Sequence record: OR062946.1 | Origin: Escherichia phage 310Ecol104PP | DNA length: 64,000 bases | Strand: one strand, 5' to 3' | Shown here: positions 1,944 to 56,912 of the stretch, piece by piece | Layout of the letters: every line of letters starts with the position of its first letter | Position numbering within the stretch: the stretch's first letter is position 1 | The notes under the pieces: generated by a model | The model's input: only the letters and a program-made list of their open reading frames with translations | What the model was told of the DNA's origin: nothing | The model's database searches: none | Program-made: the position numbers and the translations under genes

Positions 1944-2108
1944 TTACTCTTCTTTTTCTTTAGATTCCTCTTTTTTCTTTTTAGGAATCTGCTCAGGACC
2001 TTTATTTACTACAGCGCCCGACGTTGTTCCAGTAGAGATATTTTCAGGATTACCACCTGAATCTCCAGCTACCATATCTTCTTTAATAAATTCTTTATAT
2101 GTTTTCAT
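1944..2108 (-). CDS. small protein (T4 61.1 position) with capsid-targeting-like N-terminus
   Basis: 54 aa own translation MKTYKEFIKEDMVAGDSGGNPENISTGTTSGAVVNKGPEQIPKKKKEESKEKEE; not in ORF track (<60 aa). Confidence 0.55.
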   Translation of the reverse strand: MKTYKEFIKEDMVAGDSGGNPENISTGTTSGAVVNKGPEQIPKKKKEESKEKEE

Positions 2109-2154
2109 ATTAACCTCTATTCATAAAAGCATTAAAAATTTGGTCATCAATAGA
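2106..2154. repeat. direct repeat copy A (about 49 nt) at gene junction
   Basis: catattaaCctctattcataaaagcattaaaaatttggtcatcaataga; repeated at 2464..2512 with 1 mismatch. Confidence 0.9.
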
Positions 2155-2466
2155 TGGAATAGCAACCTTTTCGGCATCATTTAGCAAATCATTAATTTCA
2201 TCAGATAGCATAACACATGTGCCTTTATTTCCTGTAATTGTTACTGCACAATTACGAACGTTTTCTTTATCAAATTTTAGGTTAATATTTTCGTAGTGAA
2301 AATCCTTTAATGCCGAATATATCTTTAAAATGAAATTGTCTTTTACTACAATAAACCCAACCTCACTATTAAAACGTGGTTCATGGAAACTGTAATAAAC
2401 CTTTTCATCTATGAAATCGTATGAAATTTTTTCCATTTTTAAATATGAAAATTCAGAACTATACAT
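2110..2466 (-). CDS. hypothetical protein, 118 aa, shares C-terminal module with next gene
   Basis: ORF track; C-terminus ...SIDDQIFNAFMNRG shared with 2468..3094 product. Confidence 0.55.
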   Translation of the reverse strand: MYSSEFSYLKMEKISYDFIDEKVYYSFHEPRFNSEVGFIVVKDNFILKIYSALKDFHYENINLKFDKENVRNCAVTITGNKGTCVMLSDEINDLLNDAEKVAIPSIDDQIFNAFMNRG

Positions 2467-2512
2467 ATTAATCTCTATTCATAAAAGCATTAAAAATTTG
2501 GTCATCAATAGA
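2464..2512. repeat. direct repeat copy B (about 49 nt)
   Basis: catattaaTctctattcataaaagcattaaaaatttggtcatcaataga; pairs with 2106..2154. Confidence 0.9.
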
Positions 2513-3094
2513 AACATTTACTTTAGACTGTTTTTCAGATGGCAATTCATATCCACATATTACAATTTTATGATCAATATCAAAATACACAGAAGCAATA
2601 TGATTAATGATATTTTCAGTGAAGTCTAAATCAACATCAATATCTTTTTGACCACAGCCCAAAGGATAAATAATGCGAGTAATTCGATTATCTTTAACAA
2701 ATATTCCACCGACATACTCTGTGCTGCGTTTAAAGTCTACACGCCGACGAAATGAAAAATATTCAGGCTCTTTATGAGCTCGGCTCATAGGGCACAACGA
2801 ATAACTAGAATAAGAGATGTCAAATCCTACGCCTTCAATATGAGCCAAAGTGTCATGATTAAACCAATTATAATCGTACGCCAAATCCATTAGATTATAA
2901 TATGTAAAAGGCACCGGATTAACATCATTAGTCGCAAGCATGTAATTAGCAATTGCTATAATTTCATTGTTTTTAACGAATACAAACCGTGATTGATGCG
3001 AATGACCTGGACCCGCGTTTTCACGATTAATGATATAACACTGGGCACCTTTATATTTGTATGTATCTTTGCACTTGTGCATTTGATAGAGCAT
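2468..3094 (-). CDS. hypothetical protein, 208 aa (position and size of T4 61.2)
   Basis: ORF track; between 61.1 and sp; ends ...SIDDQIFNAFMNRD. Confidence 0.6.
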   Translation of the reverse strand: MLYQMHKCKDTYKYKGAQCYIINRENAGPGHSHQSRFVFVKNNEIIAIANYMLATNDVNPVPFTYYNLMDLAYDYNWFNHDTLAHIEGVGFDISYSSYSLCPMSRAHKEPEYFSFRRRVDFKRSTEYVGGIFVKDNRITRIIYPLGCGQKDIDVDLDFTENIINHIASVYFDIDHKIVICGYELPSEKQSKVNVSIDDQIFNAFMNRD

Positions 3095-45974: not shown

Positions 45975-46304
45975 TCAATTAGAAAATAAATTTATCCAAG
46001 ATTGTTCTTTAATTAAAAATGGCTCAGAATCATATGCCATTAAACTCTGTGTGATTAGTCCTTTAAAAGGCCCATCAATAAATTCCATGGTAAAATATGG
46101 AATTTTATTCATTAGCCGTGCATTAGGAGCAGTACATAAAACTCTGCATCCTTTGAATACACCTTTTTGTAATTTGTATTGCTTGGGATAAAATTCGCTC
46201 AAAATGTTGTTATTTGCCAAAATTTCAAAATGATTCACCAATTTATTTTTAATAGTTTTTGGCGAAAAATAAAGATATTCGAAAAGCTGTGTGTCTGTCA
46301 TCAT
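45975..46304 (-). CDS. hypothetical protein, about 109 aa
   Basis: likely start ATG 46304, ATGA overlap with upstream stop. Confidence 0.5.
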
Positions 46305-46840
46305 TGCATTCCGATTACGAAAAACTGCGGACGAGTAATACCACCAATGCAACATTTACTATTACAGCAGTAGTGTACAGTGTCAATATGGACGCTATAA
46401 ATCTTATCCATATCAGGAGATTTGACAGGCTCATCGATTATATACAAAATTCGCGAAAGCGATAAACCTCTGAACTTACTTCCTTTATTACCAATAAAAC
46501 TGCGCACAGAATCAGTAAATAAACGAAAACGTATATCATCATTAGAATAACGCGAAAATTCCTTTTTAATGTTATTTGCAGAAATTTTAGCGTAAGCTGA
46601 AGTATTAGAAAGAACAATAACTGTTCCGCCATCATACAGCCAATTAGCAGCAAAGTTAGTCACAGCAATTGATTTACCGGATTGACGTCCACCATCTATA
46701 CGAAGTGTGCAGTACTGTTTAAGTAATTCTTCAAATGGCGGGATATATTCGTTTTTACAAATTTCTTCTACTCTAGCATCAGAATGGTGTGTAAAAGCAT
46801 TCATCAGGGATAGATACGGGCCAGTTAAAAATGTTCTCAT
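46301..46840 (-). CDS. P-loop NTPase with C-terminal Cys cluster, about 179 aa
   Basis: Walker A GGRQSGKS, Walker B-like ILYIIDEP, HYCCNSKCC; start chosen at ATG 46840 (MRTFLTG). Confidence 0.55.
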   Translation of the reverse strand: MRTFLTGPYLSLMNAFTHHSDARVEEICKNEYIPPFEELLKQYCTLRIDGGRQSGKSIAVTNFAANWLYDGGTVIVLSNTSAYAKISANNIKKEFSRYSNDDIRFRLFTDSVRSFIGNKGSKFRGLSLSRILYIIDEPVKSPDMDKIYSVHIDTVHYCCNSKCCIGGITRPQFFVIGMQ

Positions 46841-46981
46841 TTTATTCTCTCTAAATTTGGGCCATTCCATGGCGCATGAATTGTCCATTTCTGTATTTAC
46901 CCATTACCGCACTCAGGCTCGACCTTATTACAGGTTGGCGGGAATCCCTTATAGAATCATAAGGTCCAGGTTGTTCCCATA

Positions 46982-47455
46982 TTATTTGAATGATTTGACG
47001 TACTGAATAGAACCTTTACTATTCACAAAGGCAATTTTACCATTTTTGTTATACATGGTAGCAGTACGTTGATAACCATAAGTTTGTTTACCAGATTGAT
47101 AACCAACTAATGCAAAATTATCTTCACCCATTTTATTCTGCTTAGCGCGAATGCGTTCATGGCCATGTGCCATAAGAACCTTAGCATCACCCGTTGCAAT
47201 GGATCTACGAGTTTTTTCATCTTCAACTGTATTAACAAAGTCGTCAAATGAATCAAATTTAGCATGAGATTTATTATACAGTTTTCCATCTACTGCATAA
47301 TTATATCCTTGTACATCCATCTCAACTTCTGTACCGTCATCCAATACAGCAGTGATTTTCTGTCCTTTTTTAAATTTCAAAAGATCAGTAAAAGATTCAG
47401 CAATAATTTGAGAATTAATAGCTGCTTCAGTAATAAATTCTTGATATGTTTTCAT
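46982..47455 (-). CDS. internal (capsid-injected) protein with capsid targeting sequence
   Basis: 157 aa; N-term MKTYQEFITEA matches T4 CTS consensus MKTYQEFIAEA. Confidence 0.65.
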   Translation of the reverse strand: MKTYQEFITEAAINSQIIAESFTDLLKFKKGQKITAVLDDGTEVEMDVQGYNYAVDGKLYNKSHAKFDSFDDFVNTVEDEKTRRSIATGDAKVLMAHGHERIRAKQNKMGEDNFALVGYQSGKQTYGYQRTATMYNKNGKIAFVNSKGSIQYVKSFK

Positions 47456-47471
47456 GTGTATCCTTTAATTT

Positions 47472-47789
47472 TTATTCTTTAGGGAAGTTTTTAGAATATG
47501 CATCATAAAGCTTATTTCCAATACGGCGGAAAACTCTAGCCGCAAAACGATTTTCTGGGTTTTTAATCATGATTTGCATCATATAAGTACCCGCGTCAGA
47601 AAGAGCTTCTTCATAGTACCCGTTAATTTCTTTAAGAGTCCTACGTTTACCACCAGGACCATCAACAGTGATTTTCCATTTACCTGTAGAAGTGCGACTT
47701 GGCGGCTCAACTTGTTCAATCCAGATATAACCACCTTCTACACGTTGTCCTGCAGCAGATTCTGCAATAAATTCTTTATACGTTTTCAT
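47472..47789 (-). CDS. internal (capsid-injected) protein with capsid targeting sequence
   Basis: 105 aa; N-term MKTYKEFIAES; basic. Confidence 0.65.
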   Translation of the reverse strand: MKTYKEFIAESAAGQRVEGGYIWIEQVEPPSRTSTGKWKITVDGPGGKRRTLKEINGYYEEALSDAGTYMMQIMIKNPENRFAARVFRRIGNKLYDAYSKNFPKE

Positions 47790-47860: not shown

Positions 47861-48391
<531 letters not shown>

Positions 48392-52626: not shown

Positions 52627-52757
52627 TGTTTTGTGAAAATTTTTTAAAAAGTTTTGGGGAATTCTAGGGCAGGGAGGGGAAATCAAAGGATAGGATAATA
52701 TATTATAAAGGGTAGAAACTAAATGATGTCTAGAGAGGCCTGGAAAGGCCTAGATGC

Positions 52758-52785
52758 CAAAAAGCCCCAACCTTTTGGTTAGGGC
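52758..52785 (-). terminator. intrinsic terminator
   Basis: GCCCTAACC-AAAA-GGTTGGGGC then UUUUUGG on minus strand. Confidence 0.65.
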
Positions 52786-52793
52786 TAAGAATG

Positions 52794-53267
52794 TTATTTG
52801 ATTTGTTTAGCAGACCAAATGCGGTCTTTAATAATCTTTTGGATGTCTTCAACATACTCTAGGTCATGAGCATGTGGATTATCTTTGAAACTATAGGCAC
52901 GGGCTAACTTTTGGCCTTCGGTTTTGATTACTAAAAGCTCTTTAAGGATAGCTTCATATTTAGCGATAATTCCTTTAACAATATTTTTTTCTTGTGCAGC
53001 TTTATGATCTGCTTTAGGAGCAGGTTTACCCGAAGCCTTTGCAAAAGCAGCGCCAGTAGCAACTAAACTTTTCCAGGCCATACTAACTGCATTTCCCGTA
53101 AATCCTTCTGCTTTCATGTCGCGAGCAAACTGGAATCGTGATTCGTCAGAAGCATCTTTATAGGAATATTTACCCGCTGCAATGGCTGCTTTTGCGACAG
53201 CTTGAATTTCGGTGCTAGATGCTTCATTTAACACCGCTTCATTTAAAAATTGAGCATATGATTTCAT
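52794..53267 (-). CDS. CTS-like N-terminus protein (candidate internal protein), 157 aa
   Basis: N-term MKSYAQFLNEA (CTS-like); Ala/Lys-rich; own late promoter and flanking terminators. Confidence 0.6.
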   Translation of the reverse strand: MKSYAQFLNEAVLNEASSTEIQAVAKAAIAAGKYSYKDASDESRFQFARDMKAEGFTGNAVSMAWKSLVATGAAFAKASGKPAPKADHKAAQEKNIVKGIIAKYEAILKELLVIKTEGQKLARAYSFKDNPHAHDLEYVEDIQKIIKDRIWSAKQIK

Positions 53268-53306: not shown

Positions 53307-53314
53307 TATTTATA
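53307..53314 (-). promoter_or_regulatory. T4 late promoter
   Basis: minus-strand TATAAATA about 40 nt upstream of ATG 53267. Confidence 0.55.
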
Positions 53315-53343
53315 CCAAAAAGCCCCAACCTTTCGGTCGGGGC
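53315..53343 (-). terminator. intrinsic terminator
   Basis: GCCCCGACC-GAAA-GGTTGGGGC then UUUUUGG; near-duplicate of 52758..52785 element. Confidence 0.65.
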
Positions 53344-53347
53344 TAAG

Positions 53348-54024: not shown

Positions 54025-54101
<77 letters not shown>

Positions 54102-54105
54102 TATT

Positions 54106-54180
54106 TGGCGGACGTGATAGGATTCGAACCTATAACCAATCGCTTAACAGGCGATCGCTCTGCCATTGAGCTACACATCC
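54106..54180 (-). tRNA. tRNA-Asn (anticodon GUU)
   Basis: manual fold: acceptor GGATGTG/CACGTCC, D-arm GCTC-AATGGCA-GAGC, anticodon loop CTGTTAA, T-loop TTCGAAT, CCA encoded. Confidence 0.8.
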
Positions 54181-54184
54181 AAAT

Positions 54185-54271
54185 TGGTGGGGAGTGATGG
54201 AGTCGAACCACCCGAGTCGCAATGACAATGGATTTACAGTCCACACCGCTACCTCTACGGGATAACTCCCC
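54185..54271 (-). tRNA. tRNA-Tyr-like (anticodon GUA), long variable arm
   Basis: perfect acceptor GGGGAGT/ACTCCCC, anticodon loop CTGTAAA, variable stem GTC/GAC, T-loop TTCGACT, CCA; D-arm irregular. Confidence 0.6.
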
Positions 54272-54280
54272 AAATTAATT

Positions 54281-54355
54281 TGGTGGCCCTGGGTGGAATT
54301 GAACCACCATCTGGCGATTATGAGTCGCTTGCTTGAACCTTCCAGCTACAGGGCC
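54281..54355 (-). tRNA. tRNA with CAU anticodon (Ile-lysidine or Met; T4 tRNA-Ile position)
   Basis: acceptor GGCCCTG/CAGGGCC, anticodon loop CTCATAA, T-loop TTCAATT, CCA; 1 nt after tRNA-Thr. Confidence 0.85.
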
Positions 54356-54356
54356 T

Positions 54357-54432
54357 TGGTGCTGATTGACGGAATCGAACCGCCGACCTTCTCATTACAA
54401 GTGAGTTGCTCTACCTACTGAGCTAAATCAGC
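54357..54432 (-). tRNA. tRNA-Thr (anticodon UGU)
   Basis: acceptor GCTGATT/AATCAGC, anticodon loop CTTGTAA, T-loop TTCGATT, CCA encoded. Confidence 0.9.
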
Positions 54433-54437
54433 AAAAC

Positions 54438-54527
54438 TGGCGGAGGCGATAGGATTTGAACCTATGAGTCGCCGGAGCGACTGCCGGTTTTCAAGACCGG
54501 TGCATTAAACCACTCTGCCACGCCTCC
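54438..54527 (-). tRNA. tRNA-Ser (anticodon UGA), long variable arm
   Basis: acceptor GGAGGCG/CGCCTCC, anticodon stem CCGGT/ACCGG loop CTTGAAA, T-loop TTCAAAT, CCA. Confidence 0.9.
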
Positions 54528-54529
54528 AG

Positions 54530-54603
54530 TCTCCATACAAGGATTTGAACCTTGGACCTCCTGATCCCAAATCAGGCGCTCTACCAAACTGAGCTACACG
54601 GAG
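54530..54603 (-). tRNA. tRNA-Pro (anticodon UGG), CCA not encoded
   Basis: anticodon loop TTTGGGA, T-loop TTCAAAT; 3' end abuts tRNA-Ser (dimeric precursor as in T4). Confidence 0.88.
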
Positions 54604-54613
54604 TAAATTAAAT

Positions 54614-54687
<74 letters not shown>

Positions 54688-54692
54688 AAATT

Positions 54693-54779
54693 TGGTGCGA
54701 GAAGTGGGACTCGAACCCACAAGGAAATCATTCCGCAGCATTTTAAGTGCTGTGCCTTTACCAATTTGACCATTCTCGC
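54693..54779 (-). tRNA. tRNA-Leu (anticodon UAA), long variable arm
   Basis: acceptor GCGAGAA/TTCTCGC, anticodon loop CTTAAAA, T-loop TTCGAGT, CCA. Confidence 0.9.
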
Positions 54780-54780
54780 G

Positions 54781-54853
54781 CTGGGAATAAAGGACTCGAA
54801 CCTTTGCATCCTGGAATCAAAATCCAGTGCCTTACCAACTTGGCTAATTCCCA
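54781..54853 (-). tRNA. tRNA-Gln (anticodon UUG), CCA not encoded
   Basis: 5' UGGGAAU, anticodon loop TTTTGAT, T-loop TTCGAGT; 3' end abuts tRNA-Leu (dimeric precursor). Confidence 0.9.
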
Positions 54854-55651: not shown

Positions 55652-55837
55652 TTATTCACCTTTAGAAATTTTATCCATAACGATAGCGATTAAACCAATT
55701 AAAAATGCTACTACAAGTGAAAACACATTTTCTGCTGTAGTTAATAATCCGCATATAAATCCAGCAAACATTGAAAAACTAAAAGCGGAAGCAGAAATTG
55801 CAATAGCAACATTTCGAATTAATTCACAGCGTTTCAT
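55652..55837 (-). CDS. small membrane protein, about 61 aa
   Basis: likely start ATG 55837 (MKRCELIRNVAIAISASAFSF); track start extends through promoter. Confidence 0.45.
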   Translation of the reverse strand: MKRCELIRNVAIAISASAFSFSMFAGFICGLLTTAENVFSLVVAFLIGLIAIVMDKISKGE

Positions 55838-55865
55838 TTTATTCTCCTCAGTAGTTGATAGTGTA

Positions 55866-55895
55866 ATAGTATCACAACTAAAACCGCATGTAAAC
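55866..55895 (-). promoter_or_regulatory. T4-type early promoter
   Basis: GTTTAC, 18 nt, TACTAT. Confidence 0.55.
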
Positions 55896-55898
55896 AAT

Positions 55899-56123
55899 TT
55901 ATTCAACACCAGCGGCTTTCAAAAGTTTCTTAAGATTGGCAACACCTTGAGCAGAAAATGTGACCTTTCCACCTTTTTCACTGATAGAACCAACCAATTT
56001 AGCAAGTTTATCATTAGGAATTTTTTTAAAATCAGCCAATGTTCCATCAAAGGTTTTTGAAACAAAAGGCAGTTCATCTTCATGTCTTTTAGCTTCTACA
56101 ATAAATTTTTGATATGTTTTCAT
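55899..56123 (-). CDS. internal protein (CTS-bearing), about 74 aa, ipI-locus member
   Basis: start ATG 56123; N-term MKTYQKFIVEA. Confidence 0.65.
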   Translation of the reverse strand: MKTYQKFIVEAKRHEDELPFVSKTFDGTLADFKKIPNDKLAKLVGSISEKGGKVTFSAQGVANLKKLLKAAGVE

Positions 56124-56150
56124 TTTAGTTTCCATTTAGATGTTTTGTTT

Positions 56151-56180
56151 TGATAGGGTAATAATATCACTACCCCATCT
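56151..56180 (-). promoter_or_regulatory. T4-type early promoter
   Basis: GTTTAC, 18 nt, TATTAT. Confidence 0.55.
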
Positions 56181-56200
56181 AAAAGTAAACAGTTTATAAA

Positions 56201-56509
56201 CTATTTTATTCCGCGTGATGCAATTGTGTTCTGCCGTTTAACGCCAGTTTGTTTAAAGTCATGATTGTCGATTTGATCGGTACGAGCAACTCCGAATGAT
56301 GATTTGATTTTAGCCTTAGATCCTTTAGTTATAGAAATAAACATCTCGGAAGCCCCTTTCTTAAAGTCCGAGGCGATTACTTCAACGCCGTTCTTAGCAA
56401 GTGACTTCAGAATTGCCTCTGCATACTCATCGTCAAGACTCGTCTGAGTATTAATAACGAATGTCTTTGGCGCAGCCGCTTCATTGATAAATTCTTTAAA
56501 TGTTTTCAT
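56201..56509 (-). CDS. internal protein (CTS-bearing), 102 aa, ipI-locus member
   Basis: N-term MKTFKEFINEA. Confidence 0.65.
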   Translation of the reverse strand: MKTFKEFINEAAAPKTFVINTQTSLDDEYAEAILKSLAKNGVEVIASDFKKGASEMFISITKGSKAKIKSSFGVARTDQIDNHDFKQTGVKRQNTIASRGIK

Positions 56510-56539
56510 TTTATTTTCCTAATTAATTTTGATGAGATA

Positions 56540-56569
56540 ATAGTACCACAACCCTATTTAAAAGTAAAC
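56540..56569 (-). promoter_or_regulatory. T4-type early promoter
   Basis: GTTTAC, 18 nt, TACTAT. Confidence 0.55.
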
Positions 56570-56842
56570 TCATTTTAAATAAATTGCGTATTTTTTATAA
56601 CCCGCTGACTCATGACGAAGACCCTTATCATTAGCAAAACGCTCAATGTTGTTAATTTGATTCTGGTCAAGTTCAGAGATGTCAAACACGAAAAAGTTAC
56701 GTTTGTTACCAACTGTTACATAGTCAGTTAAATCAATATCATATAGGTAATTGATGTCAGCAATCAAAGTCTTGACAGCTTTGCTAATTTTTACTTTTTC
56801 GTTAAAAGCAGCTTCAGCAATAAATTCTTGATACGTTTTCAT
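56570..56842 (-). CDS. internal protein (CTS-bearing), 90 aa, ipI-locus member
   Basis: N-term MKTYQEFIAEA (exact T4 CTS consensus). Confidence 0.7.
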   Translation of the reverse strand: MKTYQEFIAEAAFNEKVKISKAVKTLIADINYLYDIDLTDYVTVGNKRNFFVFDISELDQNQINNIERFANDKGLRHESAGYKKYAIYLK

Positions 56843-56865
56843 TTTATTCTCCTCAGTAGTTGATA

Positions 56866-56895
56866 GTGTAATAGTATCACTACCTCATCAGCATG
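56866..56895 (-). promoter_or_regulatory. T4-type early promoter
   Basis: GTTTAC, 18 nt, TACTAT; near-identical to 55866..55895. Confidence 0.55.
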
Positions 56896-56912
56896 TAAAC
56901 AACTTTGTGAAA

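What the first reader, a model, noticed from the sequence alone, without database searches (positions are those of the whole stretch)
1944..2108. Seven genes in the window share capsid-targeting N-termini, including the gene at the 61.1 position
Besides the ipI-locus trio and the 52794 gene, the two genes upstream of e (46982..47455, 47472..47789) and the 54-aa gene next to primase (MKTYKEFIKE...) all start with the MKTYxEFI CTS-like motif. That is at least seven CTS-bearing genes dispersed over 55 kb, against the three classical T4 internal proteins.
Basis: seen in the sequence. Interest (0 to 1): 0.5.

Follow-up and report, generated by a model that had tools for sequence, protein, structure and literature searches.

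The report
T4 61.1: capsid-arm mimic with targeting tag
Seven genes in this T4-like phage do start with the ten-residue tag that T4 uses to load proteins into its head; six are ordinary variable internal proteins, but the tiny conserved gene 61.1 is a free-standing copy of the major capsid protein's cleavage site and N-terminal arm, which makes it an unrecognised candidate head component.

Summary
The pattern MK[TS][YF]x(1-2)F[ILV]xE occurs exactly seven times in six frames, always at a minus-strand ORF start, and never in 200 shuffles. The window is a Tequatrovirus.

Five genes lie in the two classical ip loci:
- IpIV, 100% identical to T2 IpIV.
- Ip7 and Ip9.
- Two unnamed genes.

One gene (52794-53267) is a late-promoter cassette at a third locus. 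It is present in 511 phage records and always annotated as hypothetical. Many Ips per phage has been known since 1994, so "seven versus three" is not new.

The new part is gene 61.1 (1944-2108):
- The tag is present in T4 itself (MKTFKEFIKE).
- All four mutationally defined CTS positions fit: Y/F4, F7, I8, E10.
- The rest of the protein is homologous to gp23 residues about 57-101. The family HMM hits only gp23 in the PDB (E 1.3e-12), and hhalign gives 97%.
- E10 of gp61.1 aligns with gp23 E65, the maturation cleavage site.
- The family sits between helicase 41 and primase 61 in Ac42, an Aeromonas phage and a Krischvirus, and next to the primase in the KVP40-type φpp2.
- The identical protein was detected at low counts in purified fD1 virions.

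Packaging and cleavage remain unproven. I rate interest as moderate.

The parts
1944..2108 (-). Gene 61.1 (54 aa), between an extra 118-aa ORF and primase gene 61.
   Evidence: ORF list. Mature part 97.6% identical to T4 gp61.1. 100% identical to fD1 g034. phrog_1823.
2079..2108 (-). Codons 1-10 of 61.1 (MKTYKEFIKE): Ip-type capsid-targeting/propeptide module ending in an I-x-E gp21-type site.
   Evidence: Regex hit. Codon alignment. Critical positions 4, 7, 8 and 10 per PMC9026906. E10 aligns with gp23 E65.
1983..2078 (-). Codons 11-42 of 61.1 (DMVAGDSGGNPENISTGTTSGAVVNKGPEQIP): paralog of the N-terminus of mature gp23*.
   Evidence: BLASTP against T4 gp23 residues 57-93: 43% identity, ungapped, pairwise E 1e-8. 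hhalign 97%, E 1.2e-10. Family HMM against the PDB hits only gp23, E 1.3e-12.
1947..1982 (-). Codons 43-54 of 61.1: lysine-rich tail (KKKKEESKEKEE), encoded by A-runs and variable by frameshift between strains.
   Evidence: Alignment A1. K/R-rich tail in nearly all family members.
46982..47455 (-). IpIV (157 aa) at the e-proximal ip locus.
   Evidence: 100% identical to the T2 gene annotated ipIV. PF24183 and phrog_3155 'internal virion protein'.
47472..47789 (-). Unnamed Ip-type gene (105 aa, MKTYKEFIAE) at the e-proximal ip locus.
   Evidence: Regex hit. phrog_3966. Mature part has pI 9.6 and no similarity to the other proteins.
48369..48389 (-). Two TATAAATA late-promoter cores upstream of gene e (47861-48355). 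Transcripts from them would read through into the two ip genes.
   Evidence: Motif scan. ORF list. Read-through is inferred.
52794..53267 (-). Unannotated Ip-type gene (157 aa, MKSYAQFLNE) at a third locus, between e.8 and the stable-RNA/tRNA cluster. Absent there in T4, T2 and T6.
   Evidence: Regex hit. phrog_2280. 96% identical to RB32ORF133c. 511 phage records, all 'hypothetical protein'. Mature part has pI 9.4.
53307..53314 (-). TATAAATA late-promoter core 40 nt upstream of the 52794 gene.
52754..52789 (.). 36-nt direct repeat, copy 1. On the minus strand it reads as a GC-rich hairpin plus a T-run. It flanks the 52794 cassette.
   Evidence: The RB32 record notes 'flanked by 34 bp imperfect direct repeat'. 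The terminator function is my own reading of the sequence.
53312..53347 (.). 36-nt direct repeat, copy 2 (89% identical), immediately upstream of the late promoter.
55899..56123 (-). Ip-type gene (74 aa, MKTYQKFIVE) at the ipI locus.
   Evidence: Regex hit. phrog_8765 'internal virion protein'. Start chosen by its register in the repeated cassette.
56201..56509 (-). Ip7 (102 aa).
   Evidence: 99% identical to T2 ip7 and 98% to RB32 Ip7.
56570..56842 (-). Ip9 (90 aa).
   Evidence: 98.7% identical to RB32 Ip9.
56088..56200 (-). Repeated cassette in front of the 74-aa ip gene: early-type promoter, Shine-Dalgarno sequence and first codons. Further copies lie at 56474-56579, 56807-56910 and 55802-55905.
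   Evidence: Direct-repeat families D1 and D2. Upstream sequences.

Best explanation
The seven ORFs share the T4-type capsid targeting sequence (CTS). This is a 10-residue N-terminal propeptide that docks a protein onto the prohead scaffolding core. The prohead protease gp21 removes it after the (I/L)-x-E site.

**The six variable genes.** Six of the seven are members of the known, hypervariable internal-protein (Ip) class.
- IpIV and an unnamed gene sit at the e-proximal locus.
- Ip9, Ip7 and an unnamed gene sit at the ipI locus.
- One further cassette, driven by its own late promoter, sits at a third locus between e.8 and the tRNA cluster.

By analogy with Ip1-3 and Bas37_0260, they are probably injected inhibitors of type IV restriction enzymes. 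That function is inferred.

**Gene 61.1.** This gene is different in kind. It is a small protein conserved across Straboviridae. Its first 10 residues fit the Ip CTS, and residues 10-45 are a paralog of the gp23 segment that spans the maturation cleavage site and the first ~35 residues of mature gp23*. In the prohead that gp23 segment faces the scaffolding core, and after expansion it forms the N-arm and N-fist.

Most likely mechanism for gp61.1 (inferred):
1. gp61.1 is made from early transcripts.
2. It binds the scaffolding core through the same surface that recognises the gp23 pro-piece junction and the Ip CTS.
3. It is enclosed in the prohead.
4. gp21 cuts it after E10.
5. The 44-residue product either stays as a minor internal or lattice-associated peptide or leaves with the scaffold fragments.

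**Shown here:** the motif, the homology to gp23, the conservation and the synteny. **Inferred:** docking, cleavage and the fate of the product.
For: **The motif**
- Exactly seven hits in the window and 0 in 200 shuffles.
- Identity is confined to codons 1-10.
- A generalised pattern, M-x-x-hydrophobic-x-[EDQKN]-hydrophobic-hydrophobic-x-E at an ORF start, finds only 61.1, ipII, ipIII, gp24 and Alt in the whole T4 genome. gp24 and Alt are documented gp21 substrates. [quoted passage not shown]
- gp61.1 has Y4, F7, I8 and E10. These are the positions that control targeting (4, 7) and processing (8, 10) in IPIII (PMC9026906).
- D at P1' also occurs in Alt (MELITELFDE|D).

**Homology to gp23**
- BLASTP of gp61.1 against T4 gp23 is ungapped: residues 2-38 align with 57-93 at 43% identity, pairwise E 1e-8, with E10 on E65.
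- hhalign of the family profile against the gp23 N-terminal profile gives probability 97%, E 1.2e-10.
- The family HMM against all PDB sequences has only gp23 as a significant hit (E 1.3e-12). The next best is E 0.037.
- gp23 aa 66-105 point inward and probably contact the scaffolding core in the unexpanded head. Capsid-length mutations A66D, A94V and G97S map there (PMC9546572).

**Family conservation**
- 1396 phage records carry a match.
- [LIVMF]-x-E immediately precedes the conserved AGD core in 32-34 of 36 short forms and 20-22 of 27 long forms.
- Many divergent short forms keep an MK[TS]F-x-[ED]-F-type N-terminus.
- Homologs sit between helicase 41 and primase 61 in Ac42, Aeromonas phage 60AhydR15PP and a Krischvirus. 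In the KVP40-type vibriophage φpp2 the 159-aa homolog sits directly upstream of the primase.

**Direct evidence**
- fD1 g034 is 100% identical to the window protein.
- It was detected in purified virions by 2 or more peptides at low spectral count (PMC8309999 Table S3).

**The other six genes**
- Their identities were established against T2 and RB32.
- Their mature parts are basic and mutually unrelated.
- PHROG labels most of them as internal virion or head proteins.
- Late promoters lie upstream.
- Ip1-3 and Bas37_0260 inhibit GmrSD or McrBC (PMC12373910; bioRxiv 10.1101/2025.11.20.689424).
Against: - No experiment shows packaging or cleavage of gp61.1.
- The fD1 data set flags 113 of 277 gene products as particle-associated, including denV, lysozyme e, NudE and topoisomerase. 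A low-count hit there is weak evidence.
- In the T4 time-course proteome gp61.1 was not detected. Its protein class is NA and its RNA class is early (PMC9697503 supplement).
- No TATAAATA late promoter lies near 61.1. The nearest upstream one on that strand is about 39.5 kb away. The ip genes are also classed as early RNA in the same T4 data set.
- Mature gp61.1 is acidic (pI 5.0) and only 44 aa, unlike the basic Ips.
- Long-form homologs (120-165 aa) carry an unrelated ~100-residue N-terminal domain instead of a terminal CTS. A 10-residue terminal tag is therefore not universal in the family.
- The shared [LIVM]-x-E could be conserved simply as part of the gp23-like segment.
Confidence: 0.55

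Rival explanations
1. gp61.1 is a cytoplasmic mimic of the gp23 N-terminal segment and is not a head component. It is made early and binds a factor that recognises the gp23 pro-piece junction: a chaperone or assembly factor such as gp31/GroEL or gp40, the protease gp21, or a host sensor of capsid protein. It acts as a regulator or decoy. On this view its resemblance to the Ip CTS only reflects common descent with the gp23 cleavage region.
For: - Early RNA class and no nearby late promoter.
- Not detected in the T4 proteome time course.
- Strong homology to gp23 residues 57-101.
- Conserved rather than hypervariable.
- Long forms lack a terminal CTS.
- Gene 40, a head-vertex assembly factor, lies in the same early cluster.
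Against: - The N-terminus matches the Ip CTS at all four functionally mapped positions, more closely than it matches gp23 itself.
- Peptides of the identical protein were found in purified fD1 virions.
- The generalised N-terminal pattern otherwise picks out only known head-packaged proteins in T4.
Confidence: 0.25
2. gp61.1 is a replication accessory peptide of the primase-helicase module, and the similarities to the CTS and to gp23 have no functional meaning.
For: - Homologs lie between helicase 41 and primase 61 in Ac42, an Aeromonas phage and a Krischvirus, and next to the primase in the KVP40-type φpp2.
- Early transcription class.
- The lysine-rich tail could bind nucleic acid (inference).
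Against: - The similarity to gp23 is statistically strong and specific: the family HMM's only significant PDB hits are gp23.
- The conserved [LIVM]-x-E plus the CTS-like N-terminus is unexplained by a replication role.
- The 41-61 interval also holds non-replication genes: sp, dmd and, next to it, 40.
Confidence: 0.12
3. The shared N-termini are only a by-product of a shared leader, ribosome-binding context or recombination cassette, with no role in packaging.
For: At the ipI locus the promoter, the Shine-Dalgarno sequence and the first codons form a repeated ~100-nt cassette. It is also found in front of trna.4, which has no CTS.
Against: - For 61.1, IpIV, the 105-aa gene and the 52794 gene the upstream 60 nt are at background identity (23-50%), while codons 1-10 are 63-93% identical.
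- The motif is kept at the amino-acid level with synonymous changes.
- It is also kept in very divergent 61.1 homologs.
- The CTS function of this decapeptide was shown experimentally for IPIII (PMC9026906).
Confidence: 0.05

Closest known systems
T4 internal proteins IPII and IPIII and their capsid targeting sequence (Mullaney and Black 1996, as summarised in PMC9026906)
   Same: - N-terminal decapeptide MKT[YF]x[EK]FIxE, with aromatic residues at 4 and 7 and I8/E10 forming a gp21 site.
- Minus-strand orientation, like the early genes.
- For six of the seven genes: small basic mature proteins, mutually unrelated, in cassette-like hypervariable loci.
   Different: - gp61.1 is conserved and syntenic, not hypervariable.
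- Its mature part is 44 aa and acidic, and is homologous to gp23.
- It has no late promoter nearby.
- Its packaging is unproven.
[quoted passage not shown]
   Same: - Ungapped alignment at 43% identity.
- [FY]-x-x-F-[IL]-x-E immediately before the cut.
- G-D-x-G, N-I-[AS]-x-G-x-T-S-G-A-V and G-P motifs.
- A basic patch at the equivalent of MVRR.
   Different: - gp61.1 has none of the HK97-fold domains (A, P, I) and lacks residues 1-56 of the gp23 pro-piece.
- The database labels 'major capsid protein' on 61.1 homologs are misnomers.
10-residue propeptides of gp24 (MAKINELLRE|S) and Alt (MELITELFDE|D)
   Same: Same length and the same hydrophobic/E/hydrophobic-hydrophobic/x/E spacing. Both are caught by one generalised pattern together with 61.1. 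Alt shares D at P1'.
   Different: Both are large proteins with known roles, a vertex protein and an ADP-ribosyltransferase. Their propeptides lack the MKT[YF] start.
Polymorphic Ip genes of T-even phages (IpIV, Ip5-Ip9 and others; Repoila et al. 1994 as cited in PMC12373910) and their anti-restriction roles
   Same: Window genes 46982 (IpIV), 56201 (Ip7) and 56570 (Ip9) are near-identical to annotated members. 47472 and 55899 occupy the same loci.
   Different: The 52794 gene lies at a third locus (e.8 to rnaC) that is not counted among 'the two Ip loci'. It is nowhere annotated as an Ip.

Membership tests
T4-type internal (Ip) proteins carrying a CTS | N-terminal CTS with aromatic or hydrophobic residues at positions 4 and 7 (the targeting determinants). 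| tested here: met
   All seven ORFs have Y/F at position 4 and F at position 7. The criterion comes from PMC9026906.
T4-type internal (Ip) proteins carrying a CTS | A gp21 cleavage site (I/L)-x-E at residues 8-10 (the processing determinants). | tested here: met
   I or L at position 8 and E at position 10 in all seven. This is a sequence-level test only.
T4-type internal (Ip) proteins carrying a CTS | Physically packaged in the head, cleaved by gp21 and injected with the DNA. | not testable with these tools
   The only indirect evidence is from fD1 virion mass spectrometry. It flags the identical gp61.1 as low-count 'ppap', and the IpIV homolog g129 and the ipI-locus protein g146 as PPAP. 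That data set has low specificity.
T4-type internal (Ip) proteins carrying a CTS | Small basic mature protein, unrelated in sequence to other Ips. | tested here: not met
   This row is scored for gp61.1, the gene of the finding: not met, because its mature part is 44 aa with pI 5.0 and is homologous to gp23. The six other genes meet the feature (pI 8.2-9.6, no cross-hits).
T4-type internal (Ip) proteins carrying a CTS | Encoded in a hypervariable ip locus and polymorphic between close relatives. | tested here: not met
   This row is scored for gp61.1, the gene of the finding: not met, because the family is found in 1396 phage records, between 41 and 61 in Ac42, an Aeromonas phage and a Krischvirus, and next to the primase in the KVP40-type φpp2. 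Five genes meet the feature, at the e-proximal and ipI loci. The 52794 gene is a repeat-flanked cassette at a third locus.
Major capsid protein gp23 family (Pfam PF07068, HK97 fold) | HK97-fold A and P domains (about 450 residues). | tested here: not met
   gp61.1 is 54 aa. Its similarity covers only gp23 residues 54-101. It has no Pfam hit. AF2 gives mean pLDDT 61 and pTM 0.19, so it is mostly unstructured.
Major capsid protein gp23 family (Pfam PF07068, HK97 fold) | N-terminal pro-piece junction L-T-E|A followed by the N-arm sequence of gp23*. | tested here: met
   E10 aligns with E65. hhalign gives 97%, and the PDB profile search gives E 1.3e-12. This shows paralogy of a segment, not membership as a capsid protein.

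The most novel reading that the evidence does not exclude
The Ip capsid-targeting sequence and the pro-piece junction of the major capsid protein are the same recognition module, [FY]-x-x-F-[IL]-x-E|[AS]. In real T4 genes this pattern occurs only in ipII, ipIII, 61.1, gp23 and, probably by chance, uvsW.

gp61.1 would be the conserved free-standing form of that module.
1. It docks on the scaffolding core at the site used by the gp23 N-terminus.
2. gp21 cuts it.
3. Its gp23*-like arm then occupies N-arm binding sites that have no gp23 neighbour to fill them, for example around gp24 vertices or the portal.

That would make it an unrecognised, conserved structural or length-modulating component of the T4 head. 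It would also point to the molecular receptor of the CTS.
Probability: 0.2. Interest if true: 0.75.

Novelty: new variant of a known kind. Interest (0 to 1): 0.5.

Why it matters
T4 is the reference system for head assembly and for CTS-based protein packaging, which is used in T4 vaccine and delivery platforms. None of the reviews I read names what the CTS binds in the scaffolding core.

A conserved 54-aa gene that joins an Ip-type CTS to a copy of the gp23 cleavage junction and N-arm suggests two things. The CTS and the gp23 pro-piece end may use one docking site. T4 heads may also contain, or be shaped by, a small product that has been overlooked. Both ideas can be tested directly with existing mutants, fusion assays and deposited mass-spectrometry data.

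Separately, the 52794 cassette defines a third Ip locus. It is present in hundreds of Tequatroviruses and is a candidate injected anti-restriction protein.

The multiplicity of CTS genes is ordinary and already known.

Tried and rejected
- **Profile libraries.** Pfam and NCBIfam scans of gp61.1 gave no hit. PHROGs gave only families of unknown function, phrog_1823 and phrog_2086.
- **Literature on 61.1.** Searches for gp61.1, gene 61.1 and P39228 found only annotation tables. Miller 2003, Repoila 1994 and Bair 2007 are not in the held library. I therefore cannot exclude that the CTS-like start of 61.1 was noted in those papers.
- **Late promoter or terminator near 61.1.** None was found.
- **Co-variation between 61.1 and the gp23 of the same phage.** The test is not informative. 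The gp23 segment is almost invariant between T4, phage 133 and Ac42, while 61.1 diverges.
- **Long-form N-terminal domain.** It has no similarity to gp23, gp24, gp22, gp67, gp68 or gp21 of Ac42, and no Pfam family.
- **Structure prediction.** AF2 of gp61.1 was low confidence (pLDDT 61), with only a short helix over residues 4-11. No fold search was attempted.
- **Lit/Gol.** I considered and rejected a link to the Lit/Gol system. From memory, the Gol peptide of gp23 lies roughly at residues 93-122. The 61.1 homology ends near residue 101 and the tail is unrelated.
- **Word-indexed protein search.** It returned few relatives. The exhaustive HMM search was needed to see the family.
- **Pseudogene remnant.** I rejected the idea that 61.1 is a decaying copy of gene 23, because of its wide conservation and its own sequence signature (MVAGDSGG against EIGGDHGY).

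Full report
**What the window is.** The first 6 kb are 98% identical to Tequatroviruses such as CrRp10 and RB18. The gene order is that of T4 from gene 56 onwards: primase 61, helicase 41, uvsX, e, the tRNA cluster, the ipI locus, and 57B/57A. Early genes are on the minus strand. The window carries 10 tRNAs.

**The observation.** The ORF at 1944-2108 (-) encodes MKTYKEFIKEDMVAGDSGGNPENISTGTTSGAVVNKGPEQIPKKKKEESKEKEE. It lies directly before the primase ORF 913-1941.
All are on the minus strand and all hits are at ORF starts.
- Two hundred shuffles of the window gave no hit.
- Nucleotide identity among the seven genes is 63-93% over codons 1-10. It falls to 23-50% in the 60 nt on either side, and there are synonymous differences.
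- The shared element is therefore a bounded 10-codon module, not a shared leader.
- At the ipI locus there is also a repeated ~100-nt cassette made of an early-type promoter, a Shine-Dalgarno sequence and the first codons. The neighbouring trna.4 gene has the same cassette without the motif, so cassette and motif can be separated.

**What the six variable genes are.**

| Window gene | Size | Identity | Evidence |
|---|---|---|---|
| 46982-47455 | 157 aa | IpIV, 100% identical to the T2 gene annotated ipIV | |
| 47472-47789 | 105 aa | Unnamed, same locus (holds ipIII/ipII in T4), phrog_3966 | |
| 56201-56509 | 102 aa | Ip7, 98-99% identical | |
| 56570-56842 | 90 aa | Ip9, 98.7% identical | |
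| 55899-56123 | 74 aa | Unnamed, ipI locus, PHROG family 'internal virion protein' | |
| 52794-53267 | 157 aa | Unnamed, third locus between e.8 and the stable-RNA/tRNA cluster | |

- Beyond residue 12 these proteins are mutually unrelated, and their mature parts are basic, pI 8.2-9.6. This is the classical Ip pattern.
- TATAAATA late-promoter cores lie upstream of e, and would feed the e-proximal locus.
- The 52794 gene has no counterpart at that position in T4, T2 or T6.
- It has a TATAAATA core 40 nt upstream of its start.
- It is flanked by a 36-nt direct repeat that reads as a hairpin plus a T-run on the minus strand.
- It is 96% identical to RB32ORF133c, and occurs in 511 phage records, always as 'hypothetical protein'.

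**Published context.**
- T4 carries Ip1-3 in two loci, and related phages encode 'at least 10' Ips, recognised by the signal sequence. Ip1-3 each inhibit a distinct GmrSD type IV restriction enzyme (PMC12373910).
- A further ipI-locus protein, Bas37_0260, inhibits McrBC (bioRxiv 10.1101/2025.11.20.689424).
- Many CTS genes in one T-even phage is therefore established knowledge.
- The only additions here are the third locus and two unnamed alleles.

**Gene 61.1: the CTS-like start.** The motif is present in T4 itself, where 61.1 reads MKTFKEFIKE.
- In IPIII the first 10 residues suffice for packaging. Residues 4 and 7 govern targeting and residues 8 and 10 govern processing (PMC9026906). gp61.1 has Y/F4, F7, I8 and E10.
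- A generalised pattern, M-x-x-hydrophobic-x-[EDQKN]-hydrophobic-hydrophobic-x-E at an ORF start, finds only 61.1, ipII, ipIII, gp24 and Alt in all six frames of the 168.9-kb T4 genome.
- The other four are known head proteins. gp24 and Alt are documented gp21 substrates. [quoted passage not shown]
- D at P1' is also found in Alt.

**Gene 61.1: a paralog of the gp23 N-terminus.** A tblastn of gp61.1 found 1396 phage records. Several annotate the gene as 'major capsid protein', and in Acinetobacter phage 133 the listed best hit is gene 23 itself.
- BLASTP against T4 gp23 gives an ungapped alignment of gp61.1 residues 2-38 with gp23 residues 57-93. Identity is 43% and the pairwise E-value is 1e-8. 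E10 falls on E65, the P1 residue of the maturation cleavage. PMC9546572 states that the 65 N-terminal residues of gp23 are removed.
- An exhaustive HMM search gave 51 cluster representatives at 50% identity.
- The family profile against a gp23 N-terminal profile scores 97% probability, E 1.2e-10.
- Against all PDB sequences the only significant hits are gp23 chains: E 1.3e-12 for residues 54-101. The next hit is at E 0.037.
- The pattern [FY]..F[ILV].E[ASD] occurs in real T4 genes only in 61.1, ipII, ipIII, gp23 and uvsW.
[quoted passage not shown] Capsid-length mutations A66D, A94V and G97S map there. After expansion the region forms the N-arm and the N-fist that binds Soc.

**Gene 61.1: family anatomy.**
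- All members share a core [LIVM]-x-E-x-[MV]-[VI]-[AS]-G-D-[SA]-G-G...I-A-x-G-x-[TS]-[ST]-G...G-P, followed by a K/R-rich tail.
- Short forms (50-90 aa) often begin with MK[TS][FY]-x-[ED]-[FL]-[IVLM], even when otherwise very divergent.
- Long forms (120-165 aa; Ac42, and the 159-aa φpp2/KVP40-type protein) have an unrelated ~100-residue N-terminal domain with no Pfam family.
- The gene lies between helicase 41 and primase 61 in Ac42, Aeromonas phage 60AhydR15PP and a Krischvirus. In the KVP40-type φpp2 it lies directly upstream of the primase.
- The gp23 segment itself is almost invariant between T4, phage 133 and Ac42, while 61.1 keeps its own signature. The paralogy is therefore old, and a co-variation test is not informative.
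- AF2 gives a low-confidence, mostly unstructured model with a short helix over residues 4-11.

**Expression and direct evidence.**
- In T4, 61.1 RNA is classed as early and the protein was not detected. The ip genes are also classed 'early RNA', with late protein (PMC9697503 supplement).
- No late promoter lies near 61.1.
- Yersinia phage fD1 gene g034 is 100% identical to the window protein.
- Table S3 of PMC8309999 flags g034 'ppap'. That means it was detected in purified virions by two or more peptides, with a mean spectral count below 2.
- The same table flags the IpIV homolog g129 and an ipI-locus protein g146 as PPAP. It also flags denV, lysozyme e, NudE and other enzymes, 113 products in all. 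This evidence is therefore weak.
- That search was fully tryptic. A D11 N-terminus created by gp21 would have been invisible to it.

**Interpretation.**
- The six variable genes are ordinary members of the Ip class. That they are injected anti-restriction proteins is an inference from Ip1-3.
- gp61.1 most likely uses its decapeptide, and perhaps the adjacent gp23-like segment, to dock on the scaffolding core. gp21 would then cut it after E10, leaving a 44-residue peptide that resembles the gp23* N-terminus.
- I put this at about 0.55.
- The main rival, at about 0.25, is a cytoplasmic mimic of the gp23 N-terminus that regulates or decoys a gp23-binding factor.
- A replication accessory role is at about 0.12. 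A pure leader artefact is at about 0.05.

**Novelty and verdict.**
- The multiplicity of CTS genes is already known.
- The 52794 cassette is a new member of a known kind.
- gp61.1 is a new variant of a known kind: a conserved protein with a CTS-type propeptide whose mature part is a capsid-arm paralog.
- I found no paper that discusses it.
- Interest is moderate, 0.5.

Noticed in passing
window 2110-2466 (-): An extra 118-aa ORF lies between 61.1 and 61.2. Its C-terminus (..PSIDDQIFNAFMNRG) repeats the C-terminus of gp61.2 at 2468-3094 (..VSIDDQIFNAFMNRD). T4 has no gene here. fD1 (g035) and RB27 have the same arrangement.
   Followed up: partly
window 45975-46888 (-): denV appears to be absent between the e-proximal ip locus and the vs-type genes. 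A 195-aa ORF with a GGRQSGKS P-loop (46301-46888) abuts IpIV instead. Relatives that carry denV gave two-piece matches.
   Followed up: no
window 54025-54853 (-): The tRNA cluster has 10 genes (Arg, Asn, Tyr, Met, Thr, Ser, Pro, Gly, Leu, Gln). No ORF the size of segB (666 nt in T4) fits inside the contiguous cluster. T4 has 8 tRNAs with segB inserted.
   Followed up: no
window 55802-55905 (-): The trna.4-like gene (MKRCELIRNVAI..) is preceded by the same promoter and Shine-Dalgarno cassette as the three ip genes, but lacks the CTS codons. The cassette and the CTS are therefore separable.
   Followed up: partly
L003-L006 (T4 genome), gp23 codons 59-66: The pattern [FY]..F[ILV].E[ASD] in all six frames of T4 hits real genes only in 61.1, ipII, ipIII, gp23 (FGSFLTE|A) and uvsW. 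Shuffled genomes give about 2 hits. This suggests the Ip CTS and the gp23 pro-piece junction are one motif.
   Followed up: partly
L008 2183-2635 (Ac42 61.1); P0022-P0068: Long-form 61.1 homologs (120-165 aa, some about 250 aa) carry a conserved N-terminal domain (F..W.A.K.GIID..G...P.T..EK..YT.FH..VR) with no Pfam family and unknown function.
   Followed up: partly
window 1947-1982 (-): The lysine-rich tail of gp61.1 is encoded by A-runs. It differs between strains by what looks like a frameshift: the T6-type protein ends ...KKKKRNLKKKKSKNVINTLD (62 aa).
   Followed up: no
public records listed: Several GenBank/RefSeq records name 61.1 homologs 'major capsid protein' or 'major capsid domain-containing protein'. 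These are 50-60-aa proteins that match only the N-terminal arm of gp23, so the label is misleading.
   Followed up: yes
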